64,000 bases of DNA from an uncultured Dehalococcoidales bacterium (GTDB taxonomy: Bacteria > Chloroflexota > Dehalococcoidia > GIF9 > UBA5629). Shown here in pieces: positions 74-29,923 of this stretch. The stretch is taken from contig CAZFIM010000001.1 of assembly GCA_964519615.1 (NCBI GenBank), positions 112,254 to 176,253 on the forward strand. The letters run 5' to 3'. Within the stretch, counting starts at the first letter, position 1. Each line of letters opens with the position of its first letter. The position numbers and the translations under genes are program-made. The notes beneath the pieces were generated by a model. It did no database searches. It worked only from the letters and a program-made list of their open reading frames with translations, and had not been told where the DNA came from.

Positions 74-147
74 CGGGGCGTAGCGCAGCCTGGTAGCGCG
101 CAGCGTTCGGGACGCTGAGGTCGGAGGTTCGAACCCTCTCGCCCCGA
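74..147 (+). tRNA. tRNA-Pro (anticodon CGG)
   Basis: Cloverleaf: acceptor CGGGGCG/CGCCCCG, D-arm GCGC-AGCCTGGTA-GCGC, anticodon stem CAGCG/CGCTG with loop TTCGGGA, T-arm GGAGG-TTCGAAC-CCTCT, discriminator A, no encoded CCA. Closely resembles E. coli tRNA-Pro. Confidence 0.85.
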
Positions 148-8601: not shown

Positions 8602-8631
8602 TTGACACGTAATCGTGAAGAATGGTACAAT
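8602..8631 (+). promoter_or_regulatory. Near-consensus sigma-70 promoter of the CODH/ACS operon
   Basis: TTGACA (8602-8607), 18-nt spacer, extended -10 TGgTACAAT (8623-8631), about 80 nt upstream of the acsE start. Confidence 0.45.
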
Positions 8632-8712
8632 ACCGCTTGTTTTGGCGCCGCCCGATTTTGATGCTACTATTCATTCCAGTGCGTATGCCCTAATCACGAG
8701 TAGGAGGATTAC

Positions 8713-9588
8713 ATGATCCTGATTGGTGAGAGCATTCACATCATTTCCAAACTGGTAAACGACGCAGTCACAGACCGTAACCCCAAGGTTATTCAGGAGC
8801 TTGCTAAGGCACAGACGGAGGCAGGAGCAGACTATATAGATGTTAACCTCGGTCCTGCTAAAAAAGACACTGAAGCCATGACAACCTGGCTGGTAAATGC
8901 CATTCAGGAAGTCACTGATTTACCGCTGGCGATAGATACACTCAATACGGTTGCCATGGAAGCGGGATTGAAAGCCTGCAAGGTCAGACCACTGCTGAAC
9001 TCTGCCTCCGGGCGAACCGACAGCAAAGAGAAAATGCTTCCTCTAGCTAAAAAATACAATACGGAGGTTGTCATCTCAGTTTTTACCGACAAAGGCTGTC
9101 CCCCTGATATGGACAGCAGGACAGAGAGCATTATGGAGACGGTTGCGCTGGCTGAAGAAATGGGTATCGCTATCGAAGACATTTATGTTGATCCAATCAT
9201 CTTGCCTATCAGTGCAGACCAGAAGCAGGTCGCAGAAGCCACCGAGTTTGTAGGCATCCTTCAGGACCTTTTCCCCGGCATAAAATCGACTGTTGGGCTC
9301 TCTAATGTATCAAATGGTACGCCGGAGCCGCTGCGCGGCATTTTAAACCGCACCTATATGGTAATGCTGGAGCGCAAGGGTCAGTATTCAGCTATCGCCG
9401 ATGTGCTCGATAAAGAGCTGATGGCCATCAATAAGGGGCAGCGGCCCGATGTTGTCGATCTCATCCACAAGGTTATGGACGGTGAAGCAGTGGACATGGC
9501 CTCTCTCTCTAAAGAGATGCAGGACTATGTCAAAACAACGAAAGTATTAATGGGCGAGATGCTCTATTCACATGCCTGGCTTGATTAA
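8713..9588 (+). CDS. acsE: Methyltetrahydrofolate:corrinoid/iron-sulfur protein methyltransferase
   Basis: 291 aa; pterin-binding TIM barrel; N-terminus MILIGESIH...DYIDVNLGP is collinear with Moorella AcsE. Confidence 0.8.
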   Translation: MILIGESIHIISKLVNDAVTDRNPKVIQELAKAQTEAGADYIDVNLGPAKKDTEAMTTWLVNAIQEVTDLPLAIDTLNTVAMEAGLKACKVRPLLNSASGRTDSKEKMLPLAKKYNTEVVISVFTDKGCPPDMDSRTESIMETVALAEEMGIAIEDIYVDPIILPISADQKQVAEATEFVGILQDLFPGIKSTVGLSNVSNGTPEPLRGILNRTYMVMLERKGQYSAIADVLDKELMAINKGQRPDVVDLIHKVMDGEAVDMASLSKEMQDYVKTTKVLMGEMLYSHAWLD

Positions 9589-9627
9589 CTCGAGGCGGGA
9601 CATATTTCAGCCGTAAAGGAGTCTGCA

Positions 9628-10533
9628 ATGGAATATAAAGCACCTTTAGAAACATATAACGGCAAAGTGGCAGAAGTGACCATCGGTGAGGGAAGCAAGG
9701 CCGTTAAAATAGGCGGACAGAATATACTTCCCTTTCACTACTTTGAGGGGGAACAGACCAATAAACCGCTGGTTGCTCTTGAAATATGGGATACTGAGCC
9801 TGAAGGTTGGGCAGAAGGATTGCTTGAACCGTACAAAGGTGTAATCGGCGATCCGGCCGCATGGGCAAAGAAGAGTATAGAATACGGGGCAGACCTTATC
9901 TGTATACGGCTGGCAAGCACTGATCCGACGGGGAAGAACCGCACAGCGGATGAGGCCGCTGCAACGGTAAAGAAAGTTGCAGAAGCTGTTCCTGTGCCGC
10001 TGGTGATCTACGGCTGCGGGGACGAGGCTAAGGATGTGGCAGCGTTAACAAGGGTGGCTGAGGTATGCAGCGGCCAGAAGCTGCTTATAGGCCCACTTGT
10101 CAAAGAAAACTATGATCCTATAAGCAAGGCGGCGCTTGAGCACGGGCATAATATCATTGCTCAGACTCCCCTCGATATCAATCTCGAGAAAGAGCTCAAC
10201 GTAAAGCTGCTAAAGAGTTTTCCCCCGGATAGAATCGTTATCGATCCGCTCAGCTCCGGCCTGGGATACGGCATGGAGTACAGCTTTACAATTATGGAAC
10301 GTACGAGGCAGACAGCTGTAATGTTCGGCGATACCACTATGCAGATGCCTCTTATAGCAGACCTCGGCGGAGAGTGCTGGAAGACAAAACAGGCCAAAGC
10401 GAATAAAGAGCAGGGCATACTGTGGGAGGGAGTGACTGCCATGAGCCTGCTGCTCGCAGGCGCCGATATTTTGATTGTGCGTCACCCCGACAACTGCAGG
10501 TATATCAGAGAAGCCATAGATGGCTCTATGTAA
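9628..10533 (+). CDS. acsD: Corrinoid iron-sulfur protein small subunit (AcsD/CdhD-like)
   Basis: 301 aa; AEVTIGEG...IGGQNILPFHYFEGE resembles the AcsD N-terminus; AAGGAG RBS. Confidence 0.75.
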   Translation: MEYKAPLETYNGKVAEVTIGEGSKAVKIGGQNILPFHYFEGEQTNKPLVALEIWDTEPEGWAEGLLEPYKGVIGDPAAWAKKSIEYGADLICIRLASTDPTGKNRTADEAAATVKKVAEAVPVPLVIYGCGDEAKDVAALTRVAEVCSGQKLLIGPLVKENYDPISKAALEHGHNIIAQTPLDINLEKELNVKLLKSFPPDRIVIDPLSSGLGYGMEYSFTIMERTRQTAVMFGDTTMQMPLIADLGGECWKTKQAKANKEQGILWEGVTAMSLLLAGADILIVRHPDNCRYIREAIDGSM

Positions 10534-10614
10534 TTTTGATAATCATTATCGCTGAATTATAATGAATTGTATGAACGTATAGTCCCTCGCAAGATAGTAA
10601 GGAGGATTGAAAAA

Positions 10615-12936
10615 ATGGCGGTACAGGTAAATAAAGAGAAAAAGGCTAAAAAACATACGCGCAAAGATGAAGTGAACGAGATCATCAAGGCGGAGGACGC
10701 ATGGGAACCGGTAGGTCATACGCCGATGCCGGAGATTCCCGATCTCAGGAATTGGGATATGCGCTTGATGAAGCAGTATAAACCGTTTTATGCACCTATG
10801 TGCGATATGTGCTGTTTCTGCACTTACGGGAAATGTGATTTAACAGGGGATAAAAAGGGCGCCTGCGGTATAAATATTTCCGCGCAGCAGGCACGAGTCG
10901 TCCTGCTTGCCTGTTGCATGGGCATGTCTGCTCACGGTGGTCACGGGCGCCATGTGCTTCATTATCTCATAGAAAAACACGGCCGTGATTATCCGATCAA
11001 TATGGGCGATCAGGTTGCTATCGAGGCGCCGCATATCAGAACGGTGATGGGGCTCAAACCGAAGACACTTGGTGATCTGGAGAAGGCTATAGAATATGTA
11101 GAAAGCCAGCTTATTCATCTTATATCCTCACTTCACACCGGACAGGAAGGCTCTGCACTGGACTATGAATCCAAGGCGCTGCATGCCTCGATGCTCGATC
11201 ATGTAGCAATGGAAGTGTGTGATATTGCCGAGATAACCGGCTTTGGCTATCCTACTTCGGTTGCGGAGACACCTCTGGTTGACATGGGCTGGGGCTCTGT
11301 AGATAAGACCAAGCCTCTCATTCTTCTGGTCGGCCATAACCCGGTTACAGCCATTCCTATAGTCGATTATCTTAACGAGCACGGCCTGATGGATAAGGTG
11401 GAGATCGGAGGCATTTGCTGCACGGCTCTGGAGGTGACCAGGTATACCGATAGAGCAAAGATAATAGGTCCTCTTTCCCGTCAGCTTTATTTTGTCAGAA
11501 GCGGCCTTGCGGACGTGATTGTGATCGATGAACAGTGTATTCGTACCGATATCCCCGAGCAGGCCTCTAAAGTCGGCTCGGCTTTGATAGCGACCTGCGA
11601 CAAGGCCTGTCACGGTTTGGAAGACTGTAAGCACAAGGAAGTAGATGAAATAGTAAAGGAGATGGTGGGAGGTAAGCACTCGCTTATTTTCGACCCCGAG
11701 AAAGCGGCCGAAGTAGCAGTGAAGGTTGCGCTGGAGCTTGCACCGAAGAGGAAGAAACAGTTGATCACCCCGGAGCAGGTTCCCGAGCTGGCCAAAGACC
11801 ATAAGCTTTGCAATCTCTGCAGCCAGGTCTGCCCTAATTTGCTGCCCGTCGGCGATGCCGTTGAAGCGGCTAAGAACGGAGACCTTACCTTGCTTGCGGA
11901 GGTTTTCTCTAAATGTCTGGGATGCGGCAAGTGTGAACAGGAATGTCCGCGCAACGTGCCAATCATCAGCATGATGCAGGCGGTCGCAGGCAGCGAGACC
12001 TGGAAGGTACGCTCCGGACGCGGCCCTGTGATGGACAGCGAGATCAGAAAGGTGGGCGCTCCGCTGGTACTGGGTACGATACCGGGAATCATCGCCATTG
12101 TCGGCTGCTCCAATTTCCCGGAAGAGATACAGGAGATTGCTGAAATAGTCGATGAGTTTGCCAAGAGAAAGTATATAGTGGTGCTTACCGGCTGTTCGGC
12201 TATGGCCGCCGGCATGATGAAGGACAAGGACGGAAAGACGGTATATGAAAAGTACCCTCCGCAATTCGATGCCGGAGGAGTAATCAATATCGGTTCTTGT
12301 GTGTCCAATGCCCATATCACCGGTGCCGCGATGAAGGTAGCCAATATTTTCGGCACGCTGCCGCTGCGAGGCAACTACGAGGTTATTGCCGATTATGTGG
12401 TCAACCGTGTGGGGGCCTGCGGTTTAGCATGGGGAGCTATGTCTCAGAAGGCGGCCTCCATTGCTACCGGCTGCAACAGGCTGGGCATACCGGTTGTGCT
12501 TGGCCCGCACTCTGCCAAATACCGCAGACTGTACATGAGCAAGAAGGAAAATGACGATTGGACAGTGATGGACGGCAGAGAGAGGAAGCTTGTCGACACG
12601 CAGGAACCTTCGCCGGAGCACTTGATTACCGTAGTGGAATCGAAAGAACGAGCCATGATCACCATGGCCAAGCTCTGTATCCGCAAGAACGATACTCCCC
12701 AGGGCAGGCAGCTTAAGCTTACTCACTATATCGGCCTGCATAAGAAATTTATGGGGACTTTACCGGAGGATTTACACCTGTATATAAGGAAGCCCTCCGA
12801 TATTCCTATATTCTTCAAGAAGGAGATAATGCCGTATCTGCAAGAGGTGGGTTGGAAGGAGAAACCGGTGCTGTCATTACCGACCTGGATCGGGACTTAT
12901 CCGACCGATGTGCCGCTCGATGCGGTTGTACATTAG
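10615..12936 (+). CDS. cdhA: Archaeal-type CO dehydrogenase catalytic subunit (ACDS alpha, CdhA)
   Basis: About 773 aa from the ATG at 10615, which has a perfect AAGGAGG RBS; the track ORF begins at 10567. Cys-rich motifs CDMCCFCTYGKC, Ni-CODH C-cluster region, and an inserted 2x[4Fe-4S] ferredoxin domain (CxxCxxCxxxCP) typical of CdhA. Confidence 0.85.
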   Translation: MAVQVNKEKKAKKHTRKDEVNEIIKAEDAWEPVGHTPMPEIPDLRNWDMRLMKQYKPFYAPMCDMCCFCTYGKCDLTGDKKGACGINISAQQARVVLLACCMGMSAHGGHGRHVLHYLIEKHGRDYPINMGDQVAIEAPHIRTVMGLKPKTLGDLEKAIEYVESQLIHLISSLHTGQEGSALDYESKALHASMLDHVAMEVCDIAEITGFGYPTSVAETPLVDMGWGSVDKTKPLILLVGHNPVTAIPIVDYLNEHGLMDKVEIGGICCTALEVTRYTDRAKIIGPLSRQLYFVRSGLADVIVIDEQCIRTDIPEQASKVGSALIATCDKACHGLEDCKHKEVDEIVKEMVGGKHSLIFDPEKAAEVAVKVALELAPKRKKQLITPEQVPELAKDHKLCNLCSQVCPNLLPVGDAVEAAKNGDLTLLAEVFSKCLGCGKCEQECPRNVPIISMMQAVAGSETWKVRSGRGPVMDSEIRKVGAPLVLGTIPGIIAIVGCSNFPEEIQEIAEIVDEFAKRKYIVVLTGCSAMAAGMMKDKDGKTVYEKYPPQFDAGGVINIGSCVSNAHITGAAMKVANIFGTLPLRGNYEVIADYVVNRVGACGLAWGAMSQKAASIATGCNRLGIPVVLGPHSAKYRRLYMSKKENDDWTVMDGRERKLVDTQEPSPEHLITVVESKERAMITMAKLCIRKNDTPQGRQLKLTHYIGLHKKFMGTLPEDLHLYIRKPSDIPIFFKKEIMPYLQEVGWKEKPVLSLPTWIGTYPTDVPLDAVVH

Positions 12937-12976
12937 GACTAAGAGCAAGGGAGCGTCTTATTAGAGGAGGGTAACT

Positions 12977-13531
12977 ATGGCAACATCAACGCAGCCATTC
13001 CATCATGTCAATACAATGACGGGCACCAAGTATGCCCGGCTGATCGAGGATCCGGAGGAATATGCGCATTTGATTAAGCGCGCAAAACGGCCGCTGCTGA
13101 TTATTGGTGCACGCTGTCTGACCATGACTCTCGAAGGCAGGAGTTTGCTGGAATACGCAGTGGATATTGCCAAAGCGGGCAGCATACCTATATGTGCTAC
13201 TGCGCATACACAAAAACAGCTCATCGAGATGGGCGTAAAGCCTGACTGCAACTACGATATAATCGAGATATTGAATTTCCTAAAGGATGAAAACTGGCAG
13301 GGAGTGAAGAAAGAGGGGAATCATGACCTGGTGCTGTTTCTGGGGCTGAGGACCGATCTGGGTGAACAGGGGCTTTCCACCCTGAAACATTTCGCTCCGC
13401 ATTTGAAAACCATGACGCTGTGCAAGTACTATTATCCTCACGCCAGCTATTCACTGGCTAACTTCAGGAAGGATGCTAAGTGGAAGGAATTCCTTGACGC
13501 CATTATCGAAGATTTAAAGAAGGAGGCATAA
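12977..13531 (+). CDS. cdhB: ACDS epsilon subunit (CdhB)
   Basis: 184 aa, immediately 3' of cdhA; size and position match archaeal CdhB; GGAGG RBS. Confidence 0.65.
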   Translation: MATSTQPFHHVNTMTGTKYARLIEDPEEYAHLIKRAKRPLLIIGARCLTMTLEGRSLLEYAVDIAKAGSIPICATAHTQKQLIEMGVKPDCNYDIIEILNFLKDENWQGVKKEGNHDLVLFLGLRTDLGEQGLSTLKHFAPHLKTMTLCKYYYPHASYSLANFRKDAKWKEFLDAIIEDLKKEA

Positions 13532-13532
13532 G

Positions 13533-14759
13533 ATGGCAGGTATATTTCCGGTGGATGTCGGACCTCAGTACGAGGGCGAAGTAATCAGAAAAAACGATAT
13601 GCATGTTGAGTTCGGCGGCCCTAAGGTGGATACCAAGTTCGAGCTTGTGACACTCAAGAGCAGCGATGAAGTGGAAAATGAGAAGATAGAAATAATCGGT
13701 CCTGATATCAGCGAAATGGAGGAAGGCAGCAGCCATGCTTTTGCCCTGCTGATCGATGTCGCCGGTGAGAAGCTGGAAAAGGATATGGAGCCGGTCTTCG
13801 AGCGCCGGATGCACCTCTACGGCAACTATATCGAAGGGCTCTATCATATGAACCAGAGAGACGATGTCTGGATTCGTATCAGCAAAGACTCTTTCGCTAA
13901 AGGGCTCAACTCCTTTGAGGTCATCGGCCAGATCCTCATGTTCCTCTATACCTCAGAGCTGGAGGTTATCGAGAAGATTTCCATAACCTTTGTTACCGAT
14001 GAGAGCAAGGTAAAAGAGCTTTTACCTAAAGCAAAGGAAATCTATGCAGCGAGAGACGAGAGAGCCAGGGGCTTGAAAGATGACGATGTAGAGGAGTTTT
14101 ACAGCTGCGCACTCTGTCAGAGCTTCGCTCCCACCCATATTTGCGTTGCCACCCCCGAGCGCATCGCCAACTGCGGCGCCATAAGCTGGTTCGATGGGCG
14201 CGCTGCTTATAAACTGGACCCCGAAGGCCCCGTACAGGAGTGTAAGAAGGGCGAGTGTATTGATCCCGTCAAGGGAGAATACGCCGGAGTAAACAAGCTC
14301 GGCCTTGAAAAATCGATGGGCGCCTACGACCGGGTATTCTTACACAGCGCATTCGAGCACCCGCATACATCCTGCGGTTGTTTTCAGGCTATCTACTTCT
14401 ATATTCCGGAGGTGGATGCTTTCGGCCTGGTGCACCGTGATTTCGCCGGCCCGACAGTGACAGGCACTCCGTTTACCACAATGGCGGCGGATACCAGCGG
14501 AGGCAGACAGGTAGAAGGATTTCTTGGCATTGCGCTTGAATACCTGCGCTCACCCAAGTTTCTGCAGGCCGACGGCGGCTTGAAGCGCTGCGTCTGGATG
14601 CCTAAAGAGCTGAAAGAGCGATACAAGGATGTTATACCGGAAGGTTTTTATGACAAGATAGCGACTGAGGAAGATGTAAGTAATGTCGATGAGCTGCTGG
14701 AGTTTCTCGATAGAGTACAGCATCCCTGGTTGCAGGGAGAGGTAGAGCTTCCCATATAA
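13533..14759 (+). CDS. cdhC: Acetyl-CoA synthase catalytic subunit (ACDS beta, CdhC / short AcsB)
   Basis: 408 aa; nearly collinear with Methanosarcina CdhC (EFGGPK, CALCQSFAPTHICV, HTSCGCF A-cluster Cys motifs, FLQADGG). Confidence 0.9.
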   Translation: MAGIFPVDVGPQYEGEVIRKNDMHVEFGGPKVDTKFELVTLKSSDEVENEKIEIIGPDISEMEEGSSHAFALLIDVAGEKLEKDMEPVFERRMHLYGNYIEGLYHMNQRDDVWIRISKDSFAKGLNSFEVIGQILMFLYTSELEVIEKISITFVTDESKVKELLPKAKEIYAARDERARGLKDDDVEEFYSCALCQSFAPTHICVATPERIANCGAISWFDGRAAYKLDPEGPVQECKKGECIDPVKGEYAGVNKLGLEKSMGAYDRVFLHSAFEHPHTSCGCFQAIYFYIPEVDAFGLVHRDFAGPTVTGTPFTTMAADTSGGRQVEGFLGIALEYLRSPKFLQADGGLKRCVWMPKELKERYKDVIPEGFYDKIATEEDVSNVDELLEFLDRVQHPWLQGEVELPI

Positions 14760-14779
14760 GATAAACCAGGAGGAACAGC

Positions 14780-16147
14780 ATGGCGCTAAAAGGTACTGAT
14801 ATAGTCAAAAAGCTTCCCGAGTCCGGCAAAAAGAACTGCCGCGAGTGCGGGTTCCCTACCTGCTTTGCTTTTGCCATGAAATTGGCCGGCGGCGGAGTAA
14901 AACTGGAGAAATGTCCGCACCTCACCGAGGAAGTGAAGGCGGAGCTTGAAGATGCTCTGGCACCTCCGATCAAGCTGGTAACTTTAGGCACAGGTGATAA
15001 CGTGCTTAAAATCGGCAACGAAGAGGTAATCTACAGACACGAGAAGACCTTTGTGCATTCACCCGGTGTGGCAGTGCTGCTATCGGATACCGAGCCGGAA
15101 GAGAAGGTGGATAAGAAAATCAAGAAACTTCAGGACCTGCGTTATCAGTGGGTAGGAGTGGAGTTGAAAGCTGACCTTCTTGCTCTGAACTGCCAGTCAG
15201 GCGATAAGGCAAAATTCGCAGCACTGGCAAATAAAGTTCACGCAAGCAACGGTTTTGCGGTGATCCTTATCAGTGAGGATGTCGAAGCACTGGTTGCAGC
15301 CGGTAAAATCTATGCTGACCGCAGGCCGCTGCTGTACCCCGTAACGGAACAAAATATCGAACGAATAATTACTGAATTCAAAGATTCCCCTCTGCCTGTA
15401 TGCGTACGCAGCGACAATGTAGAGGGGATAGTCCCTCTCACAACCAAATTGAAGGAAGCGGGATTTGAGGAAATAGTGCTTGATCCCGGCTCCCGCAAAT
15501 TGCAGGATGCGGTACGGGACCAGATGCTGATACGCCGGGCATCGTTAAAGCAGAATTTCAGGCCGCTGGGCTATCCTACGATCGGTTTTCCCTGTTTTAT
15601 GGCCGAGGATTCCATGCACGAACTGCTCTATGCGGCTATGTTCATGATTAAGTATCCGGGTGTTATCGTGCTCTCCGATATCGCTGAAAATACGCTGCTG
15701 CCGCTGCTGGTACAGCGGTTGAATATTTATACTGACCCGCGTATACCGATGTCAGTAGAGGAGAAGCTGTACGACATCAACAATCCTGATGCAGATTCGC
15801 CGGTTCTGGTTACCAGCAACTGGGCGCTTACCTATTTCATTGTTGCCTCAGAGATAGAAGGCAGTAAAGTGCCCACATGGCTGGTTGTAAAAGAATCGGA
15901 AGGGCTGGGTGTTCTGACCGGATGGGCAGCCGGAAAGTTTACGGCTGATTCCATTGCCCCGCTGGTAAAAAAACTGGGAGTTGAGAATAAAGTTAATCAC
16001 AGGAAACTGGTTATCCCGGGAAAGGTTGCCAGGATTAAAGGCGAGCTTGAAGAAGAGCTGCCCGGATGGGAGATTATCGTAGGTCCGCGGGAAGCGGCGG
16101 AAATTCCCGGCTACCTGCCCGATCTGGTAAAACAGTGGAAGAATTAG
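14780..16147 (+). CDS. acsC: Corrinoid iron-sulfur protein large subunit (AcsC / CdhE gamma)
   Basis: 455 aa; N-terminal [4Fe-4S] motif CRECGFPTCFAFAMK, TIM barrel, C-terminal B12-binding domain. Confidence 0.85.
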   Translation: MALKGTDIVKKLPESGKKNCRECGFPTCFAFAMKLAGGGVKLEKCPHLTEEVKAELEDALAPPIKLVTLGTGDNVLKIGNEEVIYRHEKTFVHSPGVAVLLSDTEPEEKVDKKIKKLQDLRYQWVGVELKADLLALNCQSGDKAKFAALANKVHASNGFAVILISEDVEALVAAGKIYADRRPLLYPVTEQNIERIITEFKDSPLPVCVRSDNVEGIVPLTTKLKEAGFEEIVLDPGSRKLQDAVRDQMLIRRASLKQNFRPLGYPTIGFPCFMAEDSMHELLYAAMFMIKYPGVIVLSDIAENTLLPLLVQRLNIYTDPRIPMSVEEKLYDINNPDADSPVLVTSNWALTYFIVASEIEGSKVPTWLVVKESEGLGVLTGWAAGKFTADSIAPLVKKLGVENKVNHRKLVIPGKVARIKGELEEELPGWEIIVGPREAAEIPGYLPDLVKQWKN

Positions 16148-16638
16148 CGCAGACATTCGAAGACATTTTTGTACCCGAAAGGAAAGACCGCCGCCGGCTG
16201 GTAAGTATTCTGCAAGAAGTCCAGCGCAAGTACGGTTATATATCTAAAGAAGCGATGCTGCAGACAGCAGCTTTTCTGGGGATTACCCCCGGTGCTGTTT
16301 ACGGCGTCGCTACTTTTTATAACCAGTTCCGCTTTATTCCTCCCGGTAAAAACGCAGTCAAGGTATGCATGGGGACCGCATGTCATCTGGCGGGAGGTAA
16401 ACTTGTCCTTGAAGCGATATCGCGCGAGCTGGACCTGGATGTCGGAGCTGTGAGCGAGGATAGAGAGTTCAGCCTTGAAAGAGTAGCCTGTATCGGCTGC
16501 TGTGCGCTTGCGCCCGTCATTCAAATAAACGAGACGGTCTATTCCCGTATGACATCACCGAAAGTAGAAGAGGTTCTGGTATCCGTCAAACCGGCTGTTG
16601 ACGAGAGGGACAGCGCCAAGGACAAGGGGGAAGGGTGA
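16135..16638 (+). CDS. NuoE/HoxE-like thioredoxin-fold [2Fe-2S] flavoprotein-complex subunit
   Basis: CMGTACHLAGG...CIGCCALAPV cluster motif. The track ORF starts at 16066 and would overlap acsC by 82 nt; the in-frame GTG at 16135 gives a NuoE-like N-terminus (VEELAQTFEDIF...) and a 13-nt overlap. Confidence 0.7.
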   Translation: MEELAQTFEDIFVPERKDRRRLVSILQEVQRKYGYISKEAMLQTAAFLGITPGAVYGVATFYNQFRFIPPGKNAVKVCMGTACHLAGGKLVLEAISRELDLDVGAVSEDREFSLERVACIGCCALAPVIQINETVYSRMTSPKVEEVLVSVKPAVDERDSAKDKGEG

Positions 16639-16645
16639 AAAGAGC

Positions 16646-18568
16646 ATGACGATAGCATCGATGCAGCAAAAGGCTAGGGCTGAGTGGGACAAGCTATACC
16701 GCGGGGATATCCCGCATATTCTTATCGGTACTGCCACATGCGGCAGGGCAGCGGGCGCTCTTGCCGTTGTCGATGCTTTTAATAAAGAGCTTGCCCGCAG
16801 GCAGGCAAAGGCCCATGTTTCAGAGGTCGGGTGTATCGGCTTATGCTCGCTCGAGCCGCTGGTGACTATCATTAAACCTGATTCGTTTACCGTCTGTTAT
16901 CACAATATTAGCCCGTCCGATGTGCCTGCTCTGGTCGAGGGATATATAGAGGGAGATGATCCCTGTTTAGACCTGGCTGTCGGTACGGTGGAGGGAGGTG
17001 GAGGAGAGGCGGTTTATATTCCAGAACTGGAGCGGTTCGAGCATGAACACAGGGTGCTATTACGTAACTGCGGCTACAACAATCCCCGTGAGATCGACCA
17101 CTATCTTGCCTGCGGCGGATATAACGGGCTGGCCCGCGCATTATCTATGAGCCGGGAGGATATCCTGAATGAGATAGAGAGGTCCGGATTGCGGGGCCGC
17201 GGCGGTGCCGGATTTCCCACCGGAACAAAGTGGAGAATTTGCCGCCAGACCGGCGGCACAGCCAGGTATGTGATTTGTAATGCGGACGAGGGCGACCCCG
17301 GCGCATTTATGGACAGGGTGGTGCTTGAGAGCGATCCGCAGCAACTGCTGGAGGGCATGGTGATAGCCGGGTACGCCGTGGATGCCCGCCAAGGCTATAT
17401 ATATATACGTTCCGAATACCCACTGGCGGTAGAGATACTGCGCTGTGCGCTCACAAAGGCCCGTGAAAAGAAATTGCTTGGCAAGGATATAATGGGCTCC
17501 GGATTTACCTTTGATATCGAGATAATAGAGGGCGCAGGAGCTTTTGTCTGCGGTGAAGAGACCGCGCTCATAGCATCTCTTGAGGGTAAACGCGGGATGC
17601 CGCAGCCCCGCCCCCCTTTTCCTGCCGTTTCCGGTCTTTGGGGCGAGCCGACAGCCATCGATAATGTAAAGACTTTTGTGTATGTACCGTTAATACTGGA
17701 GCGTGGCGCTGACTGGTTTGCGGGTATCGGCACCGCCGGCAGCAAGGGCACTGCTGTCTTTGCGCTTGCCGGAAGCACGGTCAATACCGGGCTTGCGGAG
17801 GTCGCAATGGGGACCACACTCCATGAGCTTATTTATGATATCGGCGGAGGCATTAAAAAAGAGAGAAAGTTAAAAGGAGTTCAGATAGGCGGTCCATCGG
17901 GCGGATGCCTTCCGCAAAGTATGATGCAGACGCCCGTAGACTTCGATTCATTGAAGAAGGCCGGGGCCATTATGGGTTCAGGCGGCATAATTACCATGGA
18001 CGAAGGGAACTGCATGGTCGACACCGCCAAATTCATGATAGATTTCAATCAGAAGGAATCATGCGGCAAATGTACTCTCTGCCGTATCGGCACAACACAT
18101 ATGCTCAATATACTCGAAAGGATTACTGCCGGTCAGGGAAGGATAGAGGATATAGACCTGCTGGTTGCATTGGGGGAGGATATCAAGCTCGGCTCTTTGT
18201 GCGGGCTGGGCAGAACCGCTCCTAACCCCGTGCTCACCACCATCCGCTATTTCAGAGATGAATACGAGGCGCATATACTTGAAAAGCGCTGTCCCGCATT
18301 GGTATGTAAAGAGCTGATAGCCTACTATATTCTGCCGGAGAAATGCCAGAAGGGCTGCGATCACTGCGTCCTCTCCTGTCCGGTAGAGGCCATCAGTACC
18401 GATAGCAGCGGCATCAAAATAATCGATCAAAGCAAATGCAGCAAATGCGGCAATTGTGAGGCCGTCTGCCCGCCGGAGTATGATGCGGTTATAAGGATGT
18501 CGCCGGTGGAACTGGTGCCTGTAACCGGGCCTACCGTTGACGTAGAAGCAAAGGAAGCTAAGGAGTAG
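16646..18568 (+). CDS. NuoF/HoxF/HydB-like NAD(H)- and FMN-binding Fe-S flavoprotein with C-terminal 2x[4Fe-4S] ferredoxin domain
   Basis: GGAGFPTG FMN/NADH motifs, ESCGKCTLCR [4Fe-4S], C-terminal CDHCVLSCP / CSKCGNCEAVCP, N-terminal thioredoxin-like domain. The ATG at 16646 has a GGGGGAAGGG RBS; the track start 16598 overlaps the preceding gene. Confidence 0.8.
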   Translation: MTIASMQQKARAEWDKLYRGDIPHILIGTATCGRAAGALAVVDAFNKELARRQAKAHVSEVGCIGLCSLEPLVTIIKPDSFTVCYHNISPSDVPALVEGYIEGDDPCLDLAVGTVEGGGGEAVYIPELERFEHEHRVLLRNCGYNNPREIDHYLACGGYNGLARALSMSREDILNEIERSGLRGRGGAGFPTGTKWRICRQTGGTARYVICNADEGDPGAFMDRVVLESDPQQLLEGMVIAGYAVDARQGYIYIRSEYPLAVEILRCALTKAREKKLLGKDIMGSGFTFDIEIIEGAGAFVCGEETALIASLEGKRGMPQPRPPFPAVSGLWGEPTAIDNVKTFVYVPLILERGADWFAGIGTAGSKGTAVFALAGSTVNTGLAEVAMGTTLHELIYDIGGGIKKERKLKGVQIGGPSGGCLPQSMMQTPVDFDSLKKAGAIMGSGGIITMDEGNCMVDTAKFMIDFNQKESCGKCTLCRIGTTHMLNILERITAGQGRIEDIDLLVALGEDIKLGSLCGLGRTAPNPVLTTIRYFRDEYEAHILEKRCPALVCKELIAYYILPEKCQKGCDHCVLSCPVEAISTDSSGIKIIDQSKCSKCGNCEAVCPPEYDAVIRMSPVELVPVTGPTVDVEAKEAKE

Positions 18569-18571
18569 AAA

Positions 18572-19327
18572 ATGACAACGACAATTGTAGTAGCCGGCAA
18601 GGGGGGAGTTGGCAAAACTGCCATATCCGCACTGCTGATAGATATACTCTCTAAAAAAGGCATAGTTCTGGCTATTGATGCAGACCCCAGCACTAACTTA
18701 AGCGATTCCCTCGGCATGGAGATCACCGGTACGGTGGGCAAGGCACGCGAAGAGCTTACCGATGATATACAGAAAGGAGTGCTGTCTCCCACCGTAACCA
18801 AACAGGATATCCTGGAGATGAAAATCAGGGAATCTCTGGTGGAAGGAGCCAGAGTAGACCTTCTGCCCATGGGGCGGCCGGAGGGACCGGGCTGCTACTG
18901 CGCTGCCAACCATATGCTGCGCCTTTCCATGGAACGACTGGCTAAAAACTATGATTATCTGGTAGTGGACTCGGAGGCGGGGATGGAACATATTAGCCGT
19001 CAGACGACTCAGGATGTGGATATATTATTGATAGTATCAGACCCCACTATGAGGGGTATTACCGCCGCCTCAAGGATGAAAGACCTCATCAAAGATATGA
19101 GAACCCGTGTGGGCAAGATTTACCTTGCCGTTAATAGGGTCAGCAACGGTCTTCCTCCTGAGATTAAGCAGGCTATAGAGAAGTACAGCCTCAATCTTAT
19201 CGGTACACTTGCTGAGGACCCCAAATTGACCGAACTGGATGTGAAAGGAAAACCGATCAATGAAATGCCTAAGGGATCACCGCTGCGTGCAGGGGTGGAG
19301 GACCTGGTTAAAAAATTCGGCCTGTGA
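18572..19327 (+). CDS. cooC: CooC/AcsF-type Ni-insertion ATPase (CODH/ACS maturation)
   Basis: 251 aa; deviant Walker A GKGGVGKT, MinD/ParA-like fold; last gene of the operon. Confidence 0.8.
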   Translation: MTTTIVVAGKGGVGKTAISALLIDILSKKGIVLAIDADPSTNLSDSLGMEITGTVGKAREELTDDIQKGVLSPTVTKQDILEMKIRESLVEGARVDLLPMGRPEGPGCYCAANHMLRLSMERLAKNYDYLVVDSEAGMEHISRQTTQDVDILLIVSDPTMRGITAASRMKDLIKDMRTRVGKIYLAVNRVSNGLPPEIKQAIEKYSLNLIGTLAEDPKLTELDVKGKPINEMPKGSPLRAGVEDLVKKFGL

Positions 19328-29116: not shown

Positions 29117-29425
29117 TTACGATCCTCCGTGAGGTTAGATTATCTCTCCTCACCGTACAGTGCAGCCAACATCTTAATCATACCGTATTATATAGTGTAA
29201 AACCAGCGAGAATGTACATCATTTGCAGACCTCTTGCCAACATCCCGCTAATAATACTTCTGTACACATTATATTATAAGGGGCATGTCAAGAGACGGTA
29301 GAAAACGTTCCTTGCTTATGCTGAAGTATCTTCATGGAGGAAAAACCTTTAGCAGGGGCAACTCCCTCCATTATTATTCAGAGGTGGTACAATTACCTTA
29401 TCGACGGATAAAGGAGGCTACGACA

Positions 29426-29923
29426 ATGTCCGGAACGGAATCGTTCTTAAAAGAAGCTTTTGCGGGGGAATCACAGGCAAACCAGAAATATCTTGCTTTT
29501 GCTGCTGTGGCCAATAAAGAGGGCTATAAGCAGATTGCCAGATTCTTCAGAGCAGCAGCAGCAGCGGAGACAGTTCATGCCGGTAACCATCTGAAAGTGT
29601 TAAGAGGAATAAAAACCACCGCGGAGAATTTGAAAGAAGCAGTTACAGGAGAAACTTTCGAGTTCGAAAAAATGTATCCGGAGATGATTGAAGCCGCCAA
29701 AGCGGAAGGCAATAAAGATGCAGAACGCAGTTTTTTCTATGCTAATGAAGTAGAGAAGGTTCATGCCCGTATATATCAATCCTTTCTGGATACTATGCAA
29801 AAAGACGAACAGGATTTTCCCTACTATGTATGCCCGGTATGCGGGTATACCGCTGAGAAAGAACTGCCCGGCAATTGCCCGGTATGCGGTACGAAAGGAA
29901 GCCTTTTTACCAGAATAGACTGA
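29426..29923 (+). CDS. rbr: Rubrerythrin (ferritin-like diiron domain plus C-terminal rubredoxin-like CxxC...CxxC)
   Basis: Start re-set to the ATG at 29426 (AAGGAGG RBS 8 nt upstream); the track ORF 29285 adds 47 non-homologous residues. EAFAGESQANQKY...ETVHA diiron motifs and CPVCGY...CPVCG. Confidence 0.85.
   Translation: MSGTESFLKEAFAGESQANQKYLAFAAVANKEGYKQIARFFRAAAAAETVHAGNHLKVLRGIKTTAENLKEAVTGETFEFEKMYPEMIEAAKAEGNKDAERSFFYANEVEKVHARIYQSFLDTMQKDEQDFPYYVCPVCGYTAEKELPGNCPVCGTKGSLFTRID

What the first reader, a model, noticed from the sequence alone, without database searches (positions are those of the whole stretch)
8602..19327. Archaeal-type acetyl-CoA decarbonylase/synthase (CdhABC) fused in one operon with bacterial AcsE, a NuoE/NuoF-like NAD(H) flavoprotein pair and CooC
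Nine co-directional genes with 0-40 nt spacers sit behind one near-consensus promoter. The CODH is the archaeal 5-subunit-complex type: CdhA of about 773 aa with an embedded 2x[4Fe-4S] ferredoxin domain, CdhB epsilon, and a short CdhC-type ACS collinear with Methanosarcina CdhC. The flanking housekeeping genes (dnaA, gyrB, obg, fmt, mutL, pcrA) are unmistakably bacterial. The operon ends with a NuoE-like [2Fe-2S] subunit and a NuoF/HydB-like FMN/NAD(H) subunit carrying extra [4Fe-4S] clusters. These are tightly coupled (13-nt and 0-nt overlaps) between the CFeSP large subunit and CooC. This architecture suggests CO/acetyl-CoA redox chemistry wired directly to NAD(P)H, possibly via flavin-based electron bifurcation with ferredoxin, rather than through a separate ferredoxin pool. 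No methyl-branch genes (fhs, folD, metF) or fdh lie in the window.
Basis: partly seen in the sequence, partly recalled or inferred. Interest (0 to 1): 0.65.

Follow-up and report, generated by a model that had tools for sequence, protein, structure and literature searches.

The report
Hybrid CODH/ACS operon with bifurcation-type flavoprotein
A Chloroflexi bacterium carries the already known bacterial/archaeal "hybrid" acetyl-CoA synthase operon, and a pair of NADH/ferredoxin electron-splitting genes sits inside it in nearly all related genomes, which suggests an undescribed way of powering this carbon-fixing enzyme.

Summary
Nine co-directional genes (8713-19327) lie behind a conserved promoter: AcsE-like methyltransferase, short CdhD, archaeal-type CdhA, CdhB, CdhC, CdhE/AcsC, a NuoE-like and a NuoF-like protein, and CooC.

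The host is an uncultured Dehalococcoidia bacterium.

The archaeal CdhABC plus bacterial AcsCDE "hybrid" CODH/ACS is already published (Suzuki 2018, who cite Adam 2018; Merino 2020). That part is not new.

The informative part is the NuoEF-like pair:
- It is not complex-I NuoEF. By sequence it is a BfuBC/HydBC-type electron-bifurcating core, with every cofactor ligand present, including the diagnostic histidine.
- It follows CdhE in 47 of 52 related loci from at least four phyla.
- It forms its own clade, and its distances track those of CdhA (Mantel r=0.81).
- In this window it lacks the usual BfuA subunit. Some related loci keep a short BfuA at either end of the cluster.

I found no paper that treats this pair as part of the enzyme. 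One notes the adjacency in a single genome, and one lists the COGs among neighbours.

A Cdh-linked NAD(H)/ferredoxin bifurcating module is the best reading, but it rests on inference. No biochemistry exists. Service to another Wood-Ljungdahl enzyme is a real rival.

The parts
8602..8631 (+). Sigma-70-type promoter-like site: TTGACA, 18 nt, extended -10 TGGTACAAT
   Evidence: 11 of 12 matches with TG. Both hexamers are conserved against L161 in a diverged spacer.
8632..8712 (+). 5' leader with conserved blocks (TTGTTTTGGCGCCnCCCGA; CCAGTGCGnATG) and an AGGAGG ribosome-binding site
   Evidence: Alignment of the window with L161. No Rfam family matched.
8713..9588 (+). AcsE-like methyl-THF:corrinoid/Fe-S protein methyltransferase (291 aa)
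   Evidence: Pfam Pterin_bind. NCBIfam NF005719 scores 226 bits, below its cutoff of 259. Best solved relatives are the bacterial MeTr structures 2yci and 1f6y, at 160-165 bits.
9628..10533 (+). CdhD/AcsD, the short (301 aa) delta subunit of the corrinoid Fe-S protein
   Evidence: NF003376 scores 368.8 against a cutoff of 280; Pfam CdhD.
10536..10563 (+). Second promoter-like site (TTGATA, 16 nt, TATAAT) in the 81-nt spacer before cdhA
   Evidence: 11 of 12 matches. Not tested further.
10615..12936 (+). CdhA, archaeal-type (clade A) Ni-CODH alpha subunit, 773 aa, with an inserted 2x[4Fe-4S] E/F-cluster domain whose first ligand is His396
   Evidence: TIGR00314 scores 1110 against 781. 877 bits to 8riu_A. 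His396 replaces the first Cys of the archaeal motif.
12977..13531 (+). CdhB, epsilon subunit (184 aa)
   Evidence: TIGR00315 scores 139.6 against 101.2. Best solved relatives are 1ytl, 8riu_C and 3cf4_G.
13533..14759 (+). CdhC, short archaeal-type acetyl-CoA synthase (408 aa) lacking the roughly 300-aa N-terminal domain of bacterial AcsB
   Evidence: TIGR00316 scores 606 against 356. 469 bits to M. thermophila CdhC 9c0s_E. It aligns only to residues 319-725 of bacterial ACS.
14780..16147 (+). CdhE/AcsC, gamma (large) subunit of the corrinoid Fe-S protein, with an N-terminal [4Fe-4S] domain
   Evidence: NF003195 scores 563.6 against 306; Pfam FeS plus CdhD.
16135..16638 (+). NuoE/HydC/BfuC-like thioredoxin-fold [2Fe-2S] subunit (167 aa from GTG 16135; the ORF is open from ATG 16066)
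   Evidence: PF01257 at 156.7 bits. Best solved relatives are NfnC 9n5u_C and HydC 7p5h_C. The four Cys are invariant in 45 orthologues. The same 167-aa call with a 13-nt overlap was made in L161.
16646..18568 (+). NuoF/HydB/BfuB-like subunit (640 aa): N-terminal [2Fe-2S]-like domain, FMN/NAD(H) site, [4Fe-4S], B2 site (Cys/Thr/His/Cys/Cys), C-terminal 2x[4Fe-4S]
   Evidence: Pfam domains. 656-702 bits over residues 21-609 to the five best solved relatives, NfnB, 9bov_B, StnB and two HydB (7t2r_B, 7q4v_B), and 591-629 bits to two further HydB structures, against 420 or fewer for FdsB and NuoF. Ligands were mapped on 7t2r_B. They are invariant in 50 orthologues.
18572..19327 (+). CooC-type Ni-insertion ATPase (251 aa)
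   Evidence: Best solved relative is CooC1 3kje. The P-loop GKGGVGKT and the Cys-x-Cys motif are aligned. Pfam CbiA/AAA_31.

Best explanation
The operon encodes the bacterial 'hybrid' CODH/ACS. It combines an archaeal-type oxidoreductase module (CdhA, CdhB, CdhC) with a bacterial-type methyl-transfer module (AcsE, AcsD/CdhD, AcsC/CdhE) and the Ni-insertion factor CooC.

Embedded between AcsC and CooC is a two-subunit flavin/iron-sulfur module. By sequence it is a BfuBC (HydBC/NfnBC-type) electron-bifurcating core, not a complex-I fragment.

Most likely this module is a dedicated redox partner of the Cdh oxidoreductase module. On that reading the two electrons of CO2/CO interconversion, and hence of acetyl-CoA synthesis or cleavage, are exchanged with NAD(H) and ferredoxin together:
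2 [CO] + NAD+ + 2 Fd(ox) <-> 2 CO2 + NADH + 2 Fd(red).
Ferredoxin alone would then not be the only partner. In this lineage the usual connecting subunit BfuA is missing from the locus, so electrons would pass directly between a Cdh cluster and the BfuB/BfuC clusters.

Shown: the gene identities, the cofactor ligands, the conserved synteny and the co-phylogeny.
Inferred: physical association, the electron path, bifurcation itself, and the physiological direction.
For: Identity of the Cdh and Acs genes.

The NuoF-like protein is BfuB type.
- It aligns full length to the five best solved relatives, NfnB, 9bov_B, StnB and two HydB (7t2r_B, 7q4v_B), at 656-702 bits, and to two further HydB structures at 591-629 bits.
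- Non-bifurcating FdsB and NuoF score 420 bits or less and cover only the core.
- The B2-site ligands C438/C476/H525/C531/C536 of 7t2r_B correspond to C456/T494/H543/C549/C554 here. Schut 2022 reports this His as conserved in nearly all BfuB and absent from non-bifurcating homologues.
- All Cys and His ligands are invariant in 50 Cdh-linked orthologues, except C479 (48 of 50) and the Thr position (34 of 50).

Synteny and descent.
- NuoE plus NuoF follow CdhE in 47 of 52 loci that are long enough. The loci come from Dehalococcoidia, Syntrophales/Thermodesulfobacteriota, Coprothermobacterota and Ca. Psychracetigena.
- The Cdh-linked NuoF proteins form one clade.
- Their distances track those of CdhA: Mantel r=0.81, with 0 of 999 permutations reaching it. 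CdhC against CdhA gives 0.93.

Independence from other partners.
- Paralogous NuoE'F' pairs in the same loci carry their own BfuA or FdhA. The Cdh-linked pair is therefore not simply the Fdh diaphorase.
- A short BfuA gene sits at one or the other end of the Cdh cluster in 11 loci.
- The window has no MetFV, Fdh or hydrogenase for the pair to serve.

Gene spacing is tight: a 13-nt overlap, then 7-nt and 3-nt spacers.

Energetics.
- Schut 2022 argues that bifurcation makes sense for CO at low effective concentration.
- My own estimate from textbook free energies puts the couple (CO2 + CH3-THF + CoA)/acetyl-CoA near -400 mV. That lies between NAD and ferredoxin, like H2 and formate. This estimate was not computed with the tools.
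Against: - There is no biochemical, proteomic or structural evidence for any hybrid CODH/ACS.
- No BfuA is present in the window or in its closest relatives, and no Cdh-Bfu fusion protein was seen.
- Five of 52 loci lack NuoF. Three of these keep NuoE alone.
- The sister clade of the pair (53-62% identity) carries a short BfuA. In a subset it lies behind MetV-MetF-HdrC-HdrB. Many Cdh loci have MetVF a few kb away. The family may therefore be tied to the pathway rather than to CODH itself.
- Archaeal ACDS works with ferredoxin alone.
- The standard potential of CO2/CO (-520 mV) lies below both NAD and ferredoxin, so bifurcation is not thermodynamically required.
Confidence: 0.5

Rival explanations
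1. The NuoEF-like pair serves another Wood-Ljungdahl redox enzyme encoded elsewhere. The likeliest candidate is methylene-THF reductase MetFV (as RnfC2 does in Acetobacterium woodii); a formate dehydrogenase is another. On this reading the pair sits in the Cdh operon only for co-regulation.
For: Nine loci of the sister clade have HdrC-HdrB directly upstream of NuoE-NuoF-short BfuA, four of them with MetV-MetF further upstream on the same contig. Three more loci have MetV-MetF upstream without HdrC/HdrB hits. MetV/MetF lie within 10 kb of many Cdh loci. Suzuki 2018 describes other nuoEF sets beside fdhAB and folD in the same genome.
Against: NuoE always follows CdhE (or CdhE-CooC) directly, whereas MetVF changes position or is missing. 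No MetFV or Fdh is found among the major ORFs of this 64-kb window. Fdh-linked paralogues coexist as separate pairs in the same loci. The Cdh-linked clade is monophyletic and co-varies with CdhA.
Confidence: 0.2
2. The pair is a plain, non-bifurcating diaphorase. It would make the enzyme a CO:NAD+ (or NADH:CO2) oxidoreductase, analogous to the FdsBG/HoxEF modules of NAD-linked formate dehydrogenases and hydrogenases. This would be useful mainly when acetyl-CoA is oxidised.
For: The FMN/NAD(H) domain and the NuoE fold are shared with such modules. CO oxidation to NAD+ is strongly exergonic. No BfuA is present.
Against: The protein keeps every extra feature that distinguishes bifurcating BfuB from FdsB, HoxF and NuoF: the N-terminal [2Fe-2S]-like domain, the His-containing B2 site and the C-terminal 2x[4Fe-4S] domain. 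All are invariant in 50 orthologues. It scores about 280 bits higher to Bfu-type structures than to FdsB.
Confidence: 0.12
3. The module supplies low-potential electrons to the [4Fe-4S] cluster of AcsC. This would reactivate Co(II) corrinoid to Co(I), replacing the ATP-dependent activator RACo of classical bacterial acs clusters.
For: NuoE starts inside the end of the AcsC/CdhE gene. None of the nine operon genes matched a RACo family in Pfam, though RACo was not searched for by name.
Against: There is no known precedent. A stoichiometric two-subunit flavoprotein for an occasional repair reaction is unlikely. In several loci CooC separates CdhE from NuoE. The rest of the genome was not available to check for RACo.
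Confidence: 0.05

Closest known systems
Hybrid six-subunit CODH/ACS of bacteria (CdhABC + AcsCDE). Described for Ca. Desulforudis audaxviator, Chloroflexi RBG_13_51_36 and NPL-UPA2 'Unc8' by Suzuki 2018, who cite Adam et al. 2018, and for a Hakuba actinobacterium by Merino 2020
   Same: The subunit set and order are the same: acsE, acsD, cdhA, cdhB, cdhC, acsC. RBG_13_51_36 is itself one of the syntenic loci recovered here (L055). The host is a bacterium.
   Different: Published descriptions count six subunits. They mention nuoEF only as lying 'close to' the cluster in one genome. Here the pair is inside the operon and is conserved across phyla.
Bfu family of electron-bifurcating enzymes (BfuABC; HydABC, NfnABC/StnABC, Fdh-Bfu). 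Schut et al. 2022; structures 7t2r, 7p5h, 7q4v, 8oh5, 9n5u
   Same: The BfuB- and BfuC-like subunits carry the full cofactor-ligand set, including the diagnostic B2-site His.
   Different: No BfuA is present in this locus. This resembles 'Type 4', which is so far predicted only for rubrerythrin partners and unknowns. The neighbouring catalytic module is a whole Cdh-type CODH/ACS, which that survey does not list.
Codh-Bfu (Type 2 Bfu) predicted by Schut et al. 2022 in Acetohalobium arabaticum and Clostridium cellulovorans
   Same: The idea is the same: a Ni-CODH coupled to a BfuBC core, with CO as the third substrate.
   Different: Those are four Firmicutes clusters described by analogy with monofunctional CODH, with the CODH genes sandwiched between BfuB and BfuA, and no ACS is mentioned. 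Here the CODH is Cdh-type with epsilon, ACS and the corrinoid protein, there is no BfuA, and the BfuB clade is different.
Archaeal ACDS complex (Methanosarcina CdhABCDE; structures 3cf4, 9c0q-t, 8riu)
   Same: CdhA, CdhB and CdhC are collinear with the archaeal subunits and score 723-877, 55-95 and 469 bits respectively.
   Different: The host is bacterial. It uses a THF-type methyltransferase (AcsE) and a short delta subunit. CdhC lacks the C-terminal extension. In this sub-clade CdhA has His in place of the first Cys of the E/F ferredoxin motif. There are two extra flavoprotein genes.
CooS-CooF-FNOR clusters (CODH with an FAD/NAD(P) oxidoreductase; Whitham 2015, Geelhoed 2016, as cited in Inoue 2019)
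   Same: They set a precedent for linking CO oxidation to pyridine nucleotides.
   Different: The flavoprotein family is unrelated, the CODH is CooS-type, and there is no ACS.

Membership tests
Cdh-type (clade A) Ni-CODH, ACDS alpha subunit | Scores above the curated cutoff of the CdhA equivalog model and is closest to archaeal CdhA rather than to CooS/AcsA or HCP | tested here: met
   TIGR00314 scores 1110.1 against 781.3. TIGR01702 (CooS) scores 75 against 478. 877 bits to 8riu_A against about 70 to bacterial CODH.
Cdh-type (clade A) Ni-CODH, ACDS alpha subunit | Inserted ferredoxin-like domain binding two extra [4Fe-4S] clusters (E and F) | tested here: met
   Fer4 dicluster hits within the insert. 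Seven of the eight canonical Cys are present. The first is His396 in this sub-clade (35 of 81 sequences) and Cys in the other 46. Cluster type at that site is unknown.
Cdh-type (clade A) Ni-CODH, ACDS alpha subunit | Partner epsilon subunit CdhB encoded next to it | tested here: met
   TIGR00315 scores 139.6 against 101.2. The best solved relatives are all ACDS epsilon subunits.
Hybrid bacterial CODH/ACS (CdhABC + AcsCDE) | Archaeal-type CdhA, CdhB and short CdhC together with AcsE, a short delta and a gamma subunit in one cluster of a bacterial genome | tested here: met
   The flanks are bacterial. The nearest relatives are Dehalococcoidia MAGs. The bacterial origin of AcsC and AcsD was not re-derived by phylogeny here; it is taken from Suzuki 2018.
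AcsE (methyl-THF:CFeSP methyltransferase) | Scores above the curated cutoffs of the NCBIfam AcsE models | tested here: not met
   NF005719 scores 226.1 against 259. NF040758 scores 184 against 370. It is still closest to solved MeTr at 160-165 bits. Best described as a divergent AcsE-like protein.
Bfu family (BfuBC core, Schut 2022) | BfuB with an FMN/NAD(H) domain and the B1 [4Fe-4S] ligands | tested here: met
   PF01512 and PF10589. C473 and C476 are present in 50 of 50 orthologues, C479 in 48 of 50, and C519 in 50 of 50.
Bfu family (BfuBC core, Schut 2022) | B2 site with Cys, Cys/Thr, His, Cys, Cys. The His is absent from non-bifurcating homologues | tested here: met
   C456, T494, H543, C549 and C554 align to C438, C476, H525, C531 and C536 of 7t2r_B. 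The four Cys/His residues are invariant in 50 orthologues and Thr is present in 34 of 50.
Bfu family (BfuBC core, Schut 2022) | C-terminal 2x[4Fe-4S] domain (B3, B4) in BfuB | tested here: met
   Eight Cys (567, 571, 574, 578, 598, 601, 604, 608) are invariant in 50 of 50. Pfam Fer4 dicluster hits.
Bfu family (BfuBC core, Schut 2022) | N-terminal [2Fe-2S] (B5) domain in BfuB | tested here: inconclusive
   The domain is present and aligns to NfnB and StnB. Only three canonical Cys (32, 63, 67) are invariant. A fourth candidate, C107, is invariant in the Cdh-linked clade and present in 54 of 79 sister sequences. Ligation cannot be decided from sequence.
Bfu family (BfuBC core, Schut 2022) | BfuC with a [2Fe-2S] cluster (C-x4-C-x35-C-x3-C) | tested here: met
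   C101, C106, C142 and C146 (numbered from the 16066 ORF) are invariant in 45 orthologues. Best solved relatives are NfnC and HydC.
Bfu family (BfuBC core, Schut 2022) | BfuA (NuoG/HydA N-terminal type) subunit feeding electrons to the core (Types 1-3) | tested here: not met
   No BfuA-like sequence was found anywhere in the 64-kb window or in the closest loci. A short BfuA is present in 11 more distant Cdh loci and in 63 of 69 sister-clade loci. The window would therefore be 'Type 4'-like, or BfuA is encoded elsewhere.
Bfu family (BfuBC core, Schut 2022) | Tightly coupled three-substrate (NAD, ferredoxin, third substrate) activity | not testable with these tools
   Needs an enzyme assay.
Respiratory complex I NuoE/NuoF | Equivalog-level score and a nuoA-N gene context | tested here: not met
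   TIGR01959 scores 473.7 against 558.65. NuoE model NF005722 scores 139.7 against 141. No other nuo genes appear among the scanned ORFs. The extra N- and C-terminal domains are absent from NuoF.
Codh-Bfu (Type 2) of Schut 2022 | CODH genes sandwiched between BfuB and BfuA | tested here: not met
   The CODH here is Cdh-type with ACS, and there is no BfuA.
CooC Ni-insertion ATPase | Deviant Walker A P-loop and a Cys-x-Cys metal-binding motif; encoded beside a Ni-CODH | tested here: met
   Alignment to CooC1 3kje shows GKGGVGKT and CyC aligned. No CooC-specific HMM was available, and the generic CbiA/MinD models hit as well.

The most novel reading that the evidence does not exclude
The hybrid CODH/ACS of Dehalococcoidia, Syntrophales and other subsurface bacteria is an eight-subunit enzyme. 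In it a BfuA-less BfuBC core is wired directly to the Cdh iron-sulfur clusters.

This would make acetyl-CoA synthesis and cleavage itself an electron-bifurcating (or confurcating) reaction that uses NAD(H) and ferredoxin together.

In a stronger variant, CODH occupies the low-potential arm normally taken by ferredoxin. The clade-specific residues next to the C-terminal ferredoxin-domain Cys ligands of BfuB would fit this. Moderately reducing ferredoxin could then drive CO2 reduction at -520 mV, with the energy paid by concurrent NAD+ reduction.
Probability: 0.3. Interest if true: 0.8.

Novelty: new variant of a known kind. Interest (0 to 1): 0.6.

Why it matters
CO2 reduction to CO is the most reducing step of the Wood-Ljungdahl pathway. 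How energy-starved subsurface bacteria pay for it, or what they recover from it when running the pathway backwards, is an open question. Papers on the hybrid CODH/ACS state that its advantage and biochemistry are unknown.

If the conserved BfuBC-type pair is part of the enzyme, three things follow.
- Half of the electrons would come from, or go to, NADH. That changes ATP-yield estimates for acetogenesis and acetate oxidation in Dehalococcoidia and Syntrophales.
- It would add a complete CODH/ACS to the list of Bfu partners.
- It would provide a natural example of a BfuBC core working without BfuA.

The hypothesis is directly testable, because the operon is compact and recurs in many metagenomes.

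Tried and rejected
- **Complex-I fragment.** Rejected. Scores fall below the equivalog cutoffs, no nuo genes lie nearby, and the protein has extra domains.
Rejected for the Cdh-linked pair. Only separate paralogous pairs carry BfuA or FdhA.
- **Riboswitch in the leader.** No Rfam family matched.
- **Source genome.** An exact-sequence look-up found nothing. A close relative with 86% NuoF identity gave the same locus.
- **Adam et al. 2018.** The paper is not held, so its content is cited only through Suzuki 2018 and Merino 2020.
- **Context of the representative-library hits.** This could not be looked up directly because of a tool restriction. I scanned metagenome contigs with the nearest representative, P0241, instead. 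That returned the sister clade, not P0241 itself.
- **His396 of CdhA against absence of BfuA.** The correlation is only partial. Many Cys396 loci also lack BfuA.
- **Structure prediction.** Not used. The tool folds single chains and returns no coordinates, so it could test neither docking nor cluster ligation.

Full report
**1. What is there**

The window region 8602-19327 holds nine co-directional ORFs. Pfam and NCBIfam assign them as follows.
- An AcsE-like pterin-binding methyltransferase.
- A short CdhD/AcsD.
- CdhA (TIGR00314, 1110 bits against a cutoff of 781).
- CdhB epsilon (TIGR00315, 139.6 against 101.2).
- CdhC (TIGR00316, 606 against 356; 408 aa).
- CdhE/AcsC.
- A thioredoxin-like [2Fe-2S] NuoE-type protein.
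- A 640-aa NuoF-type protein with additional Fe-S domains.
- A CbiA/MinD-type ATPase.

Reading the junctions gives these starts and spacings.
- NuoE starts at GTG 16135, a 13-nt overlap with CdhE. A gene caller made the same choice in a close relative.
- NuoF starts at ATG 16646, 7 nt after the NuoE stop, with a GGAAGGG ribosome-binding site.
- CooC starts 3 nt after the NuoF stop.

The promoter-like site at 8602-8631 matches 11 of 12 positions and has an extended -10. Its hexamers are conserved against relative L161 while the surrounding spacer has diverged. A second 11/12 site lies in the 81-nt spacer before cdhA.

The flanks are bacterial housekeeping genes: fmt, dnaA, obg, nadD-like, gyrB; then PAS/HD, mutL, pcrA. 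No methyl-branch, Fdh, hydrogenase or NuoG/BfuA-like gene turned up among the major ORFs of the 64 kb.

**2. The Cdh part is archaeal in type, bacterial in host, and already known**

- CdhA scores 877 bits to an archaeal CdhA structure (8riu_A) and 723-762 bits to the Methanosarcina CdhA structures 3cf4_A and 9c0q_A. It scores only about 70 bits to bacterial CODH.
- CdhB matches only ACDS epsilon subunits.
- CdhC aligns end to end with M. thermophila CdhC. It aligns only to residues 319-725 of bacterial ACS, so it lacks the bacterial N-terminal domain.
- AcsE is closest to the bacterial methyl-THF:CFeSP methyltransferases 2yci and 1f6y, although it falls below the NCBIfam cutoffs.
- CooC aligns to CooC1 with the P-loop and Cys-x-Cys motif.

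The nearest CdhA and NuoF homologues are all from Chloroflexota/Dehalococcoidia metagenome genomes.

This combination is published as the 'hybrid' CODH/ACS. It pairs an archaeal CdhABC oxidoreductase module with a bacterial AcsCDE methyl-transfer module in one bacterial cluster.
- Suzuki et al. 2018 describe it in NPL-UPA2 Unc8, Ca. Desulforudis audaxviator and Chloroflexi RBG_13_51_36. They attribute it, following Adam et al. 2018, to one archaeon-to-bacterium transfer followed by spread among bacteria.
- Merino et al. 2020 find it in an actinobacterium and state that its biochemical properties are unknown.
- RBG_13_51_36 is my locus L055.

This half of the finding is therefore correct but not new.

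**3. The NuoEF-like pair is a BfuBC-type core**

Against solved structures, the NuoF-like protein aligns over residues 21-609.
- Top hits, at 656-702 bits:
  - NfnB (9n5u_B).
  - 9bov_B, deposited as 'NADH dehydrogenase (Quinone)'.
  - 8oh5_B, which I take from memory to be StnB of Sporomusa ovata.
  - The NiFe-hydrogenase subunit B 7t2r_B, which Schut 2022 describes for Acetomicrobium mobile.
  - HydB 7q4v_B.
- The non-bifurcating FdsB and NuoF reach 420 bits or less and cover only the core.

The NuoE-like protein is closest to NfnC and HydC.

Schut et al. 2022 define the Bfu family by a conserved BfuBC core. The core comprises FMN, B1 [4Fe-4S], an unusual B2 site, two C-terminal [4Fe-4S] clusters (B3, B4), an N-terminal [2Fe-2S] (B5), and the BfuC [2Fe-2S]. 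[quoted passage not shown]

In the alignment to 7t2r_B, ligands C438, C476, H525, C531 and C536 correspond to window C456, T494, H543, C549 and C554. Thr at the second position is the commoner variant according to that paper.

Conservation across the Cdh-linked orthologues taken from related loci is as follows.
- The B2 Cys and His residues, three of the four B1 Cys and the eight B3/B4 Cys are invariant across 50 NuoF orthologues. The fourth B1 Cys, C479, is present in 48 of 50.
- The four BfuC Cys are invariant across 45 NuoE orthologues.
- Thr494 is present in 34 of 50.

The N-terminal domain keeps three invariant Cys plus C107 as a candidate fourth ligand, so its ligation remains undecided. 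By sequence criteria the pair is a BfuBC core. It is not complex-I NuoEF: TIGR01959 scores 473.7, below its cutoff of 558.65.

**4. Is the pair really tied to Cdh?**

I fetched 80 genome loci with a CdhA alignment and mapped the nine window proteins on them.
- The order AcsE-CdhD-CdhA-CdhB-CdhC-CdhE-NuoE-NuoF(-CooC) recurs in several groups:
  - Dehalococcoidia.
  - Syntrophales, Syntrophaceae and other Thermodesulfobacteriota.
  - Coprothermobacterota.
  - Ca. Psychracetigena (NPL-UPA2).
- Of 52 loci with at least 3.5 kb after CdhE, 47 have both genes within 4 kb.
- The exceptions are two loci with neither gene and three that keep NuoE only.
- Variants place CooC between CdhE and NuoE, or upstream of AcsE.
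- The Cdh-linked NuoF proteins are monophyletic relative to local paralogues, to 90 representatives of the wider family and to five solved structures.
- Their pairwise distances correlate with those of CdhA (Mantel r=0.81, 0 of 999 permutations). This is not far below CdhC against CdhA at 0.93. The pair has evidently travelled with the cluster, including between phyla.
- Paralogous NuoE'F' pairs (44-49% identity) in L011, L033 and L058 bring their own partner: a short BfuA, or an Fe-S protein plus an FdhA-like protein. The Cdh-linked pair is therefore not the Fdh diaphorase.

**5. BfuA and the sister clade**

A metagenome scan seeded with the nearest representative (P0241, a NuoE-NuoF fusion) returned 80 loci. 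Their NuoE/NuoF pairs are 53-62% identical to the window protein.
- In 63 of 69 loci with room, a short BfuA-like gene follows NuoF directly. It is about 215-226 aa and carries Fer2_4, NADH-G_4Fe-4S_3 and two [4Fe-4S] motifs.
- In nine loci the trio lies directly behind HdrC-HdrB, four of them with MetV-MetF further upstream. A few others lie near bacterial-type acs genes.

Among Cdh loci, the short BfuA appears in only 11.
- It lies directly after NuoF in two deltaproteobacterial clusters (L034, L043).
- It lies directly before AcsE in nine clusters (L049, L062, L064, L065, L069, L071, L073, L074, L080).
- The window, its close relatives and most Dehalococcoidia loci have none.

Two readings follow.
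- A full BfuABC module can flank the Cdh genes, which strengthens the link between Bfu and this cluster.
- In the window's lineage the core either works without BfuA or uses one encoded elsewhere. The former would resemble Schut's 'Type 4', predicted so far for rubrerythrin partners and for 'not immediately clear' cases.

The MetFV/HdrCB context of part of the sister clade, and MetVF genes within 10 kb of many Cdh loci, keep alive the rival that the pair serves methylene-THF reductase. Against that rival:
- NuoE is always next to CdhE (or CdhE-CooC), while MetVF moves about.
- MetVF is absent from this 64-kb window.

**6. Mechanism**

The best-supported explanation is that the pair is a dedicated NAD(H)/ferredoxin module of the hybrid CODH/ACS.
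- Schut et al. list CO (-520 mV) as a possible third substrate. They argue that bifurcation pays at very low effective substrate concentration.
- CO in CODH/ACS is a tunnelled intermediate.
- I estimate, from textbook free energies, that the couple (CO2 + CH3-THF + CoA)/acetyl-CoA lies near -400 mV. The inputs are about +20 kJ/mol for CO2 + H2 -> CO and about -22 kJ/mol for CO + CH3-THF + CoA -> acetyl-CoA. Both values are recalled, not computed here. That potential lies between NAD and ferredoxin, as for H2 and formate, the classical Bfu substrates.
- In the reductive direction this would halve the demand for reduced ferredoxin. In the oxidative direction it would yield NADH plus reduced ferredoxin.

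Clade-specific residues may mark altered docking, but this is speculation.
- In BfuB: L110, T114 and P126, and E572, H573 and L576 inside the first C-terminal ferredoxin motif. H573 is present in 50 of 50 Cdh-linked sequences, against Ala in 76 of 79 sister sequences.
- In this sub-clade of CdhA: His in place of the first Cys of the E/F ferredoxin motif, in 35 of 81 sequences.

None of the electron path, the association or the bifurcation is shown.

**7. Novelty**

In the searchable literature I found three relevant statements.
- Suzuki 2018 remark that one nuoEF set is 'close to' the CODH/ACS cluster in a single genome.
- Inoue 2019 list COG1894, COG1905 and COG1034 among Wood-Ljungdahl-group neighbours of Ni-CODHs.
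- Schut 2022 predict a Codh-Bfu from four Firmicutes clusters that include BfuA. They do not mention Cdh or ACS.

A 2026 genomic-context survey of CODHs does not mention Nuo or bifurcation. Adam 2018 could not be read.

I therefore rate the finding as a new variant of known kinds, which are the hybrid CODH/ACS and the Bfu family. It rests on comparative genomics and needs biochemistry.

Noticed in passing
L007:12314-13009, L047:2577-3284 and about 25 other Cdh loci; absent from the window (between 12936 and 12977): A conserved DUF166 gene (about 231 aa, PF02593) sits between cdhA and cdhB in many hybrid clusters of Dehalococcoidia, Coprothermobacterota, Syntrophorhabdus and Ca. Psychracetigena. 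It is missing in the window and its closest relatives. Its function is unknown.
   Followed up: partly
window 11800-11832 (CdhA residues 396-406): The first ligand of the first ferredoxin motif in the CdhA E/F-cluster domain is His (H-x2-C-x2-C-x3-CP) in the window and 34 relatives. It is Cys in 46 other bacterial CdhA and in archaeal structures. This may indicate a His-ligated or altered cluster.
   Followed up: partly
window 16646-18568 (NuoF residues 107, 110, 114, 126, 572, 573, 576): Some residues are invariant in the Cdh-linked NuoF clade and different in the BfuA-containing sister clade. They cluster after the N-terminal domain and next to the Cys ligands of the C-terminal ferredoxin domain; H573, for example, is Ala in the sister clade.
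   Followed up: partly
window 10536-10563: A second near-consensus promoter-like site (TTGATA, 16 nt, TATAAT) lies in the 81-nt spacer before cdhA. It could allow separate expression of the oxidoreductase genes.
   Followed up: no
window 8632-8712: The 5' leader between the promoter and acsE has blocks conserved against L161 (TTGTTTTGGCGCCnCCCGA; CCAGTGCGnATG) in an otherwise diverged intergenic region. No Rfam match was found.
   Followed up: partly
L056, L073, L077: In these loci NuoE is retained after CdhE but NuoF is absent. In L077, for example, unrelated genes (iron repressor, FeoB) follow. This could be real loss or an assembly artefact.
   Followed up: partly
L033:4430-9621; L011:5046-8067; L058:12404-15378: Second, paralogous NuoE'F' pairs are inserted in or beside Cdh clusters. 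Each has its own partner: an Fe-S protein plus an FdhA-like molybdopterin protein in L033, and a short BfuA in L011 and L058.
   Followed up: yes
L092:4652-13149 and eight similar loci (L094, L096, L097, L101, L103, L104, L118, L155): Sister-clade arrangement MetV-MetF-(sensor kinase)-HdrC-HdrB-NuoE-NuoF-short BfuA. This looks like a candidate Bfu-linked methylene-THF reductase system.
   Followed up: partly
window 19390-21558 (- strand): A PAS/HD-domain signalling protein lies convergent to the operon end. It occupies the same position in relative L161.
   Followed up: no
window 74-147: A tRNA gene, the only Rfam match at gathering threshold in the window.
   Followed up: no
window 30735-32396 and 55866-57638 (- strand): Two paralogous large proteins with TIG/IPT and Ig-like domains, probably cell-surface proteins.
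   Followed up: no
window 29285-29923: A rubrerythrin gene. Rubrerythrin is the only partner so far proposed for BfuA-less Bfu cores (Schut 2022), but here it lies 10 kb from the NuoEF-like pair and is not adjacent.
   Followed up: no
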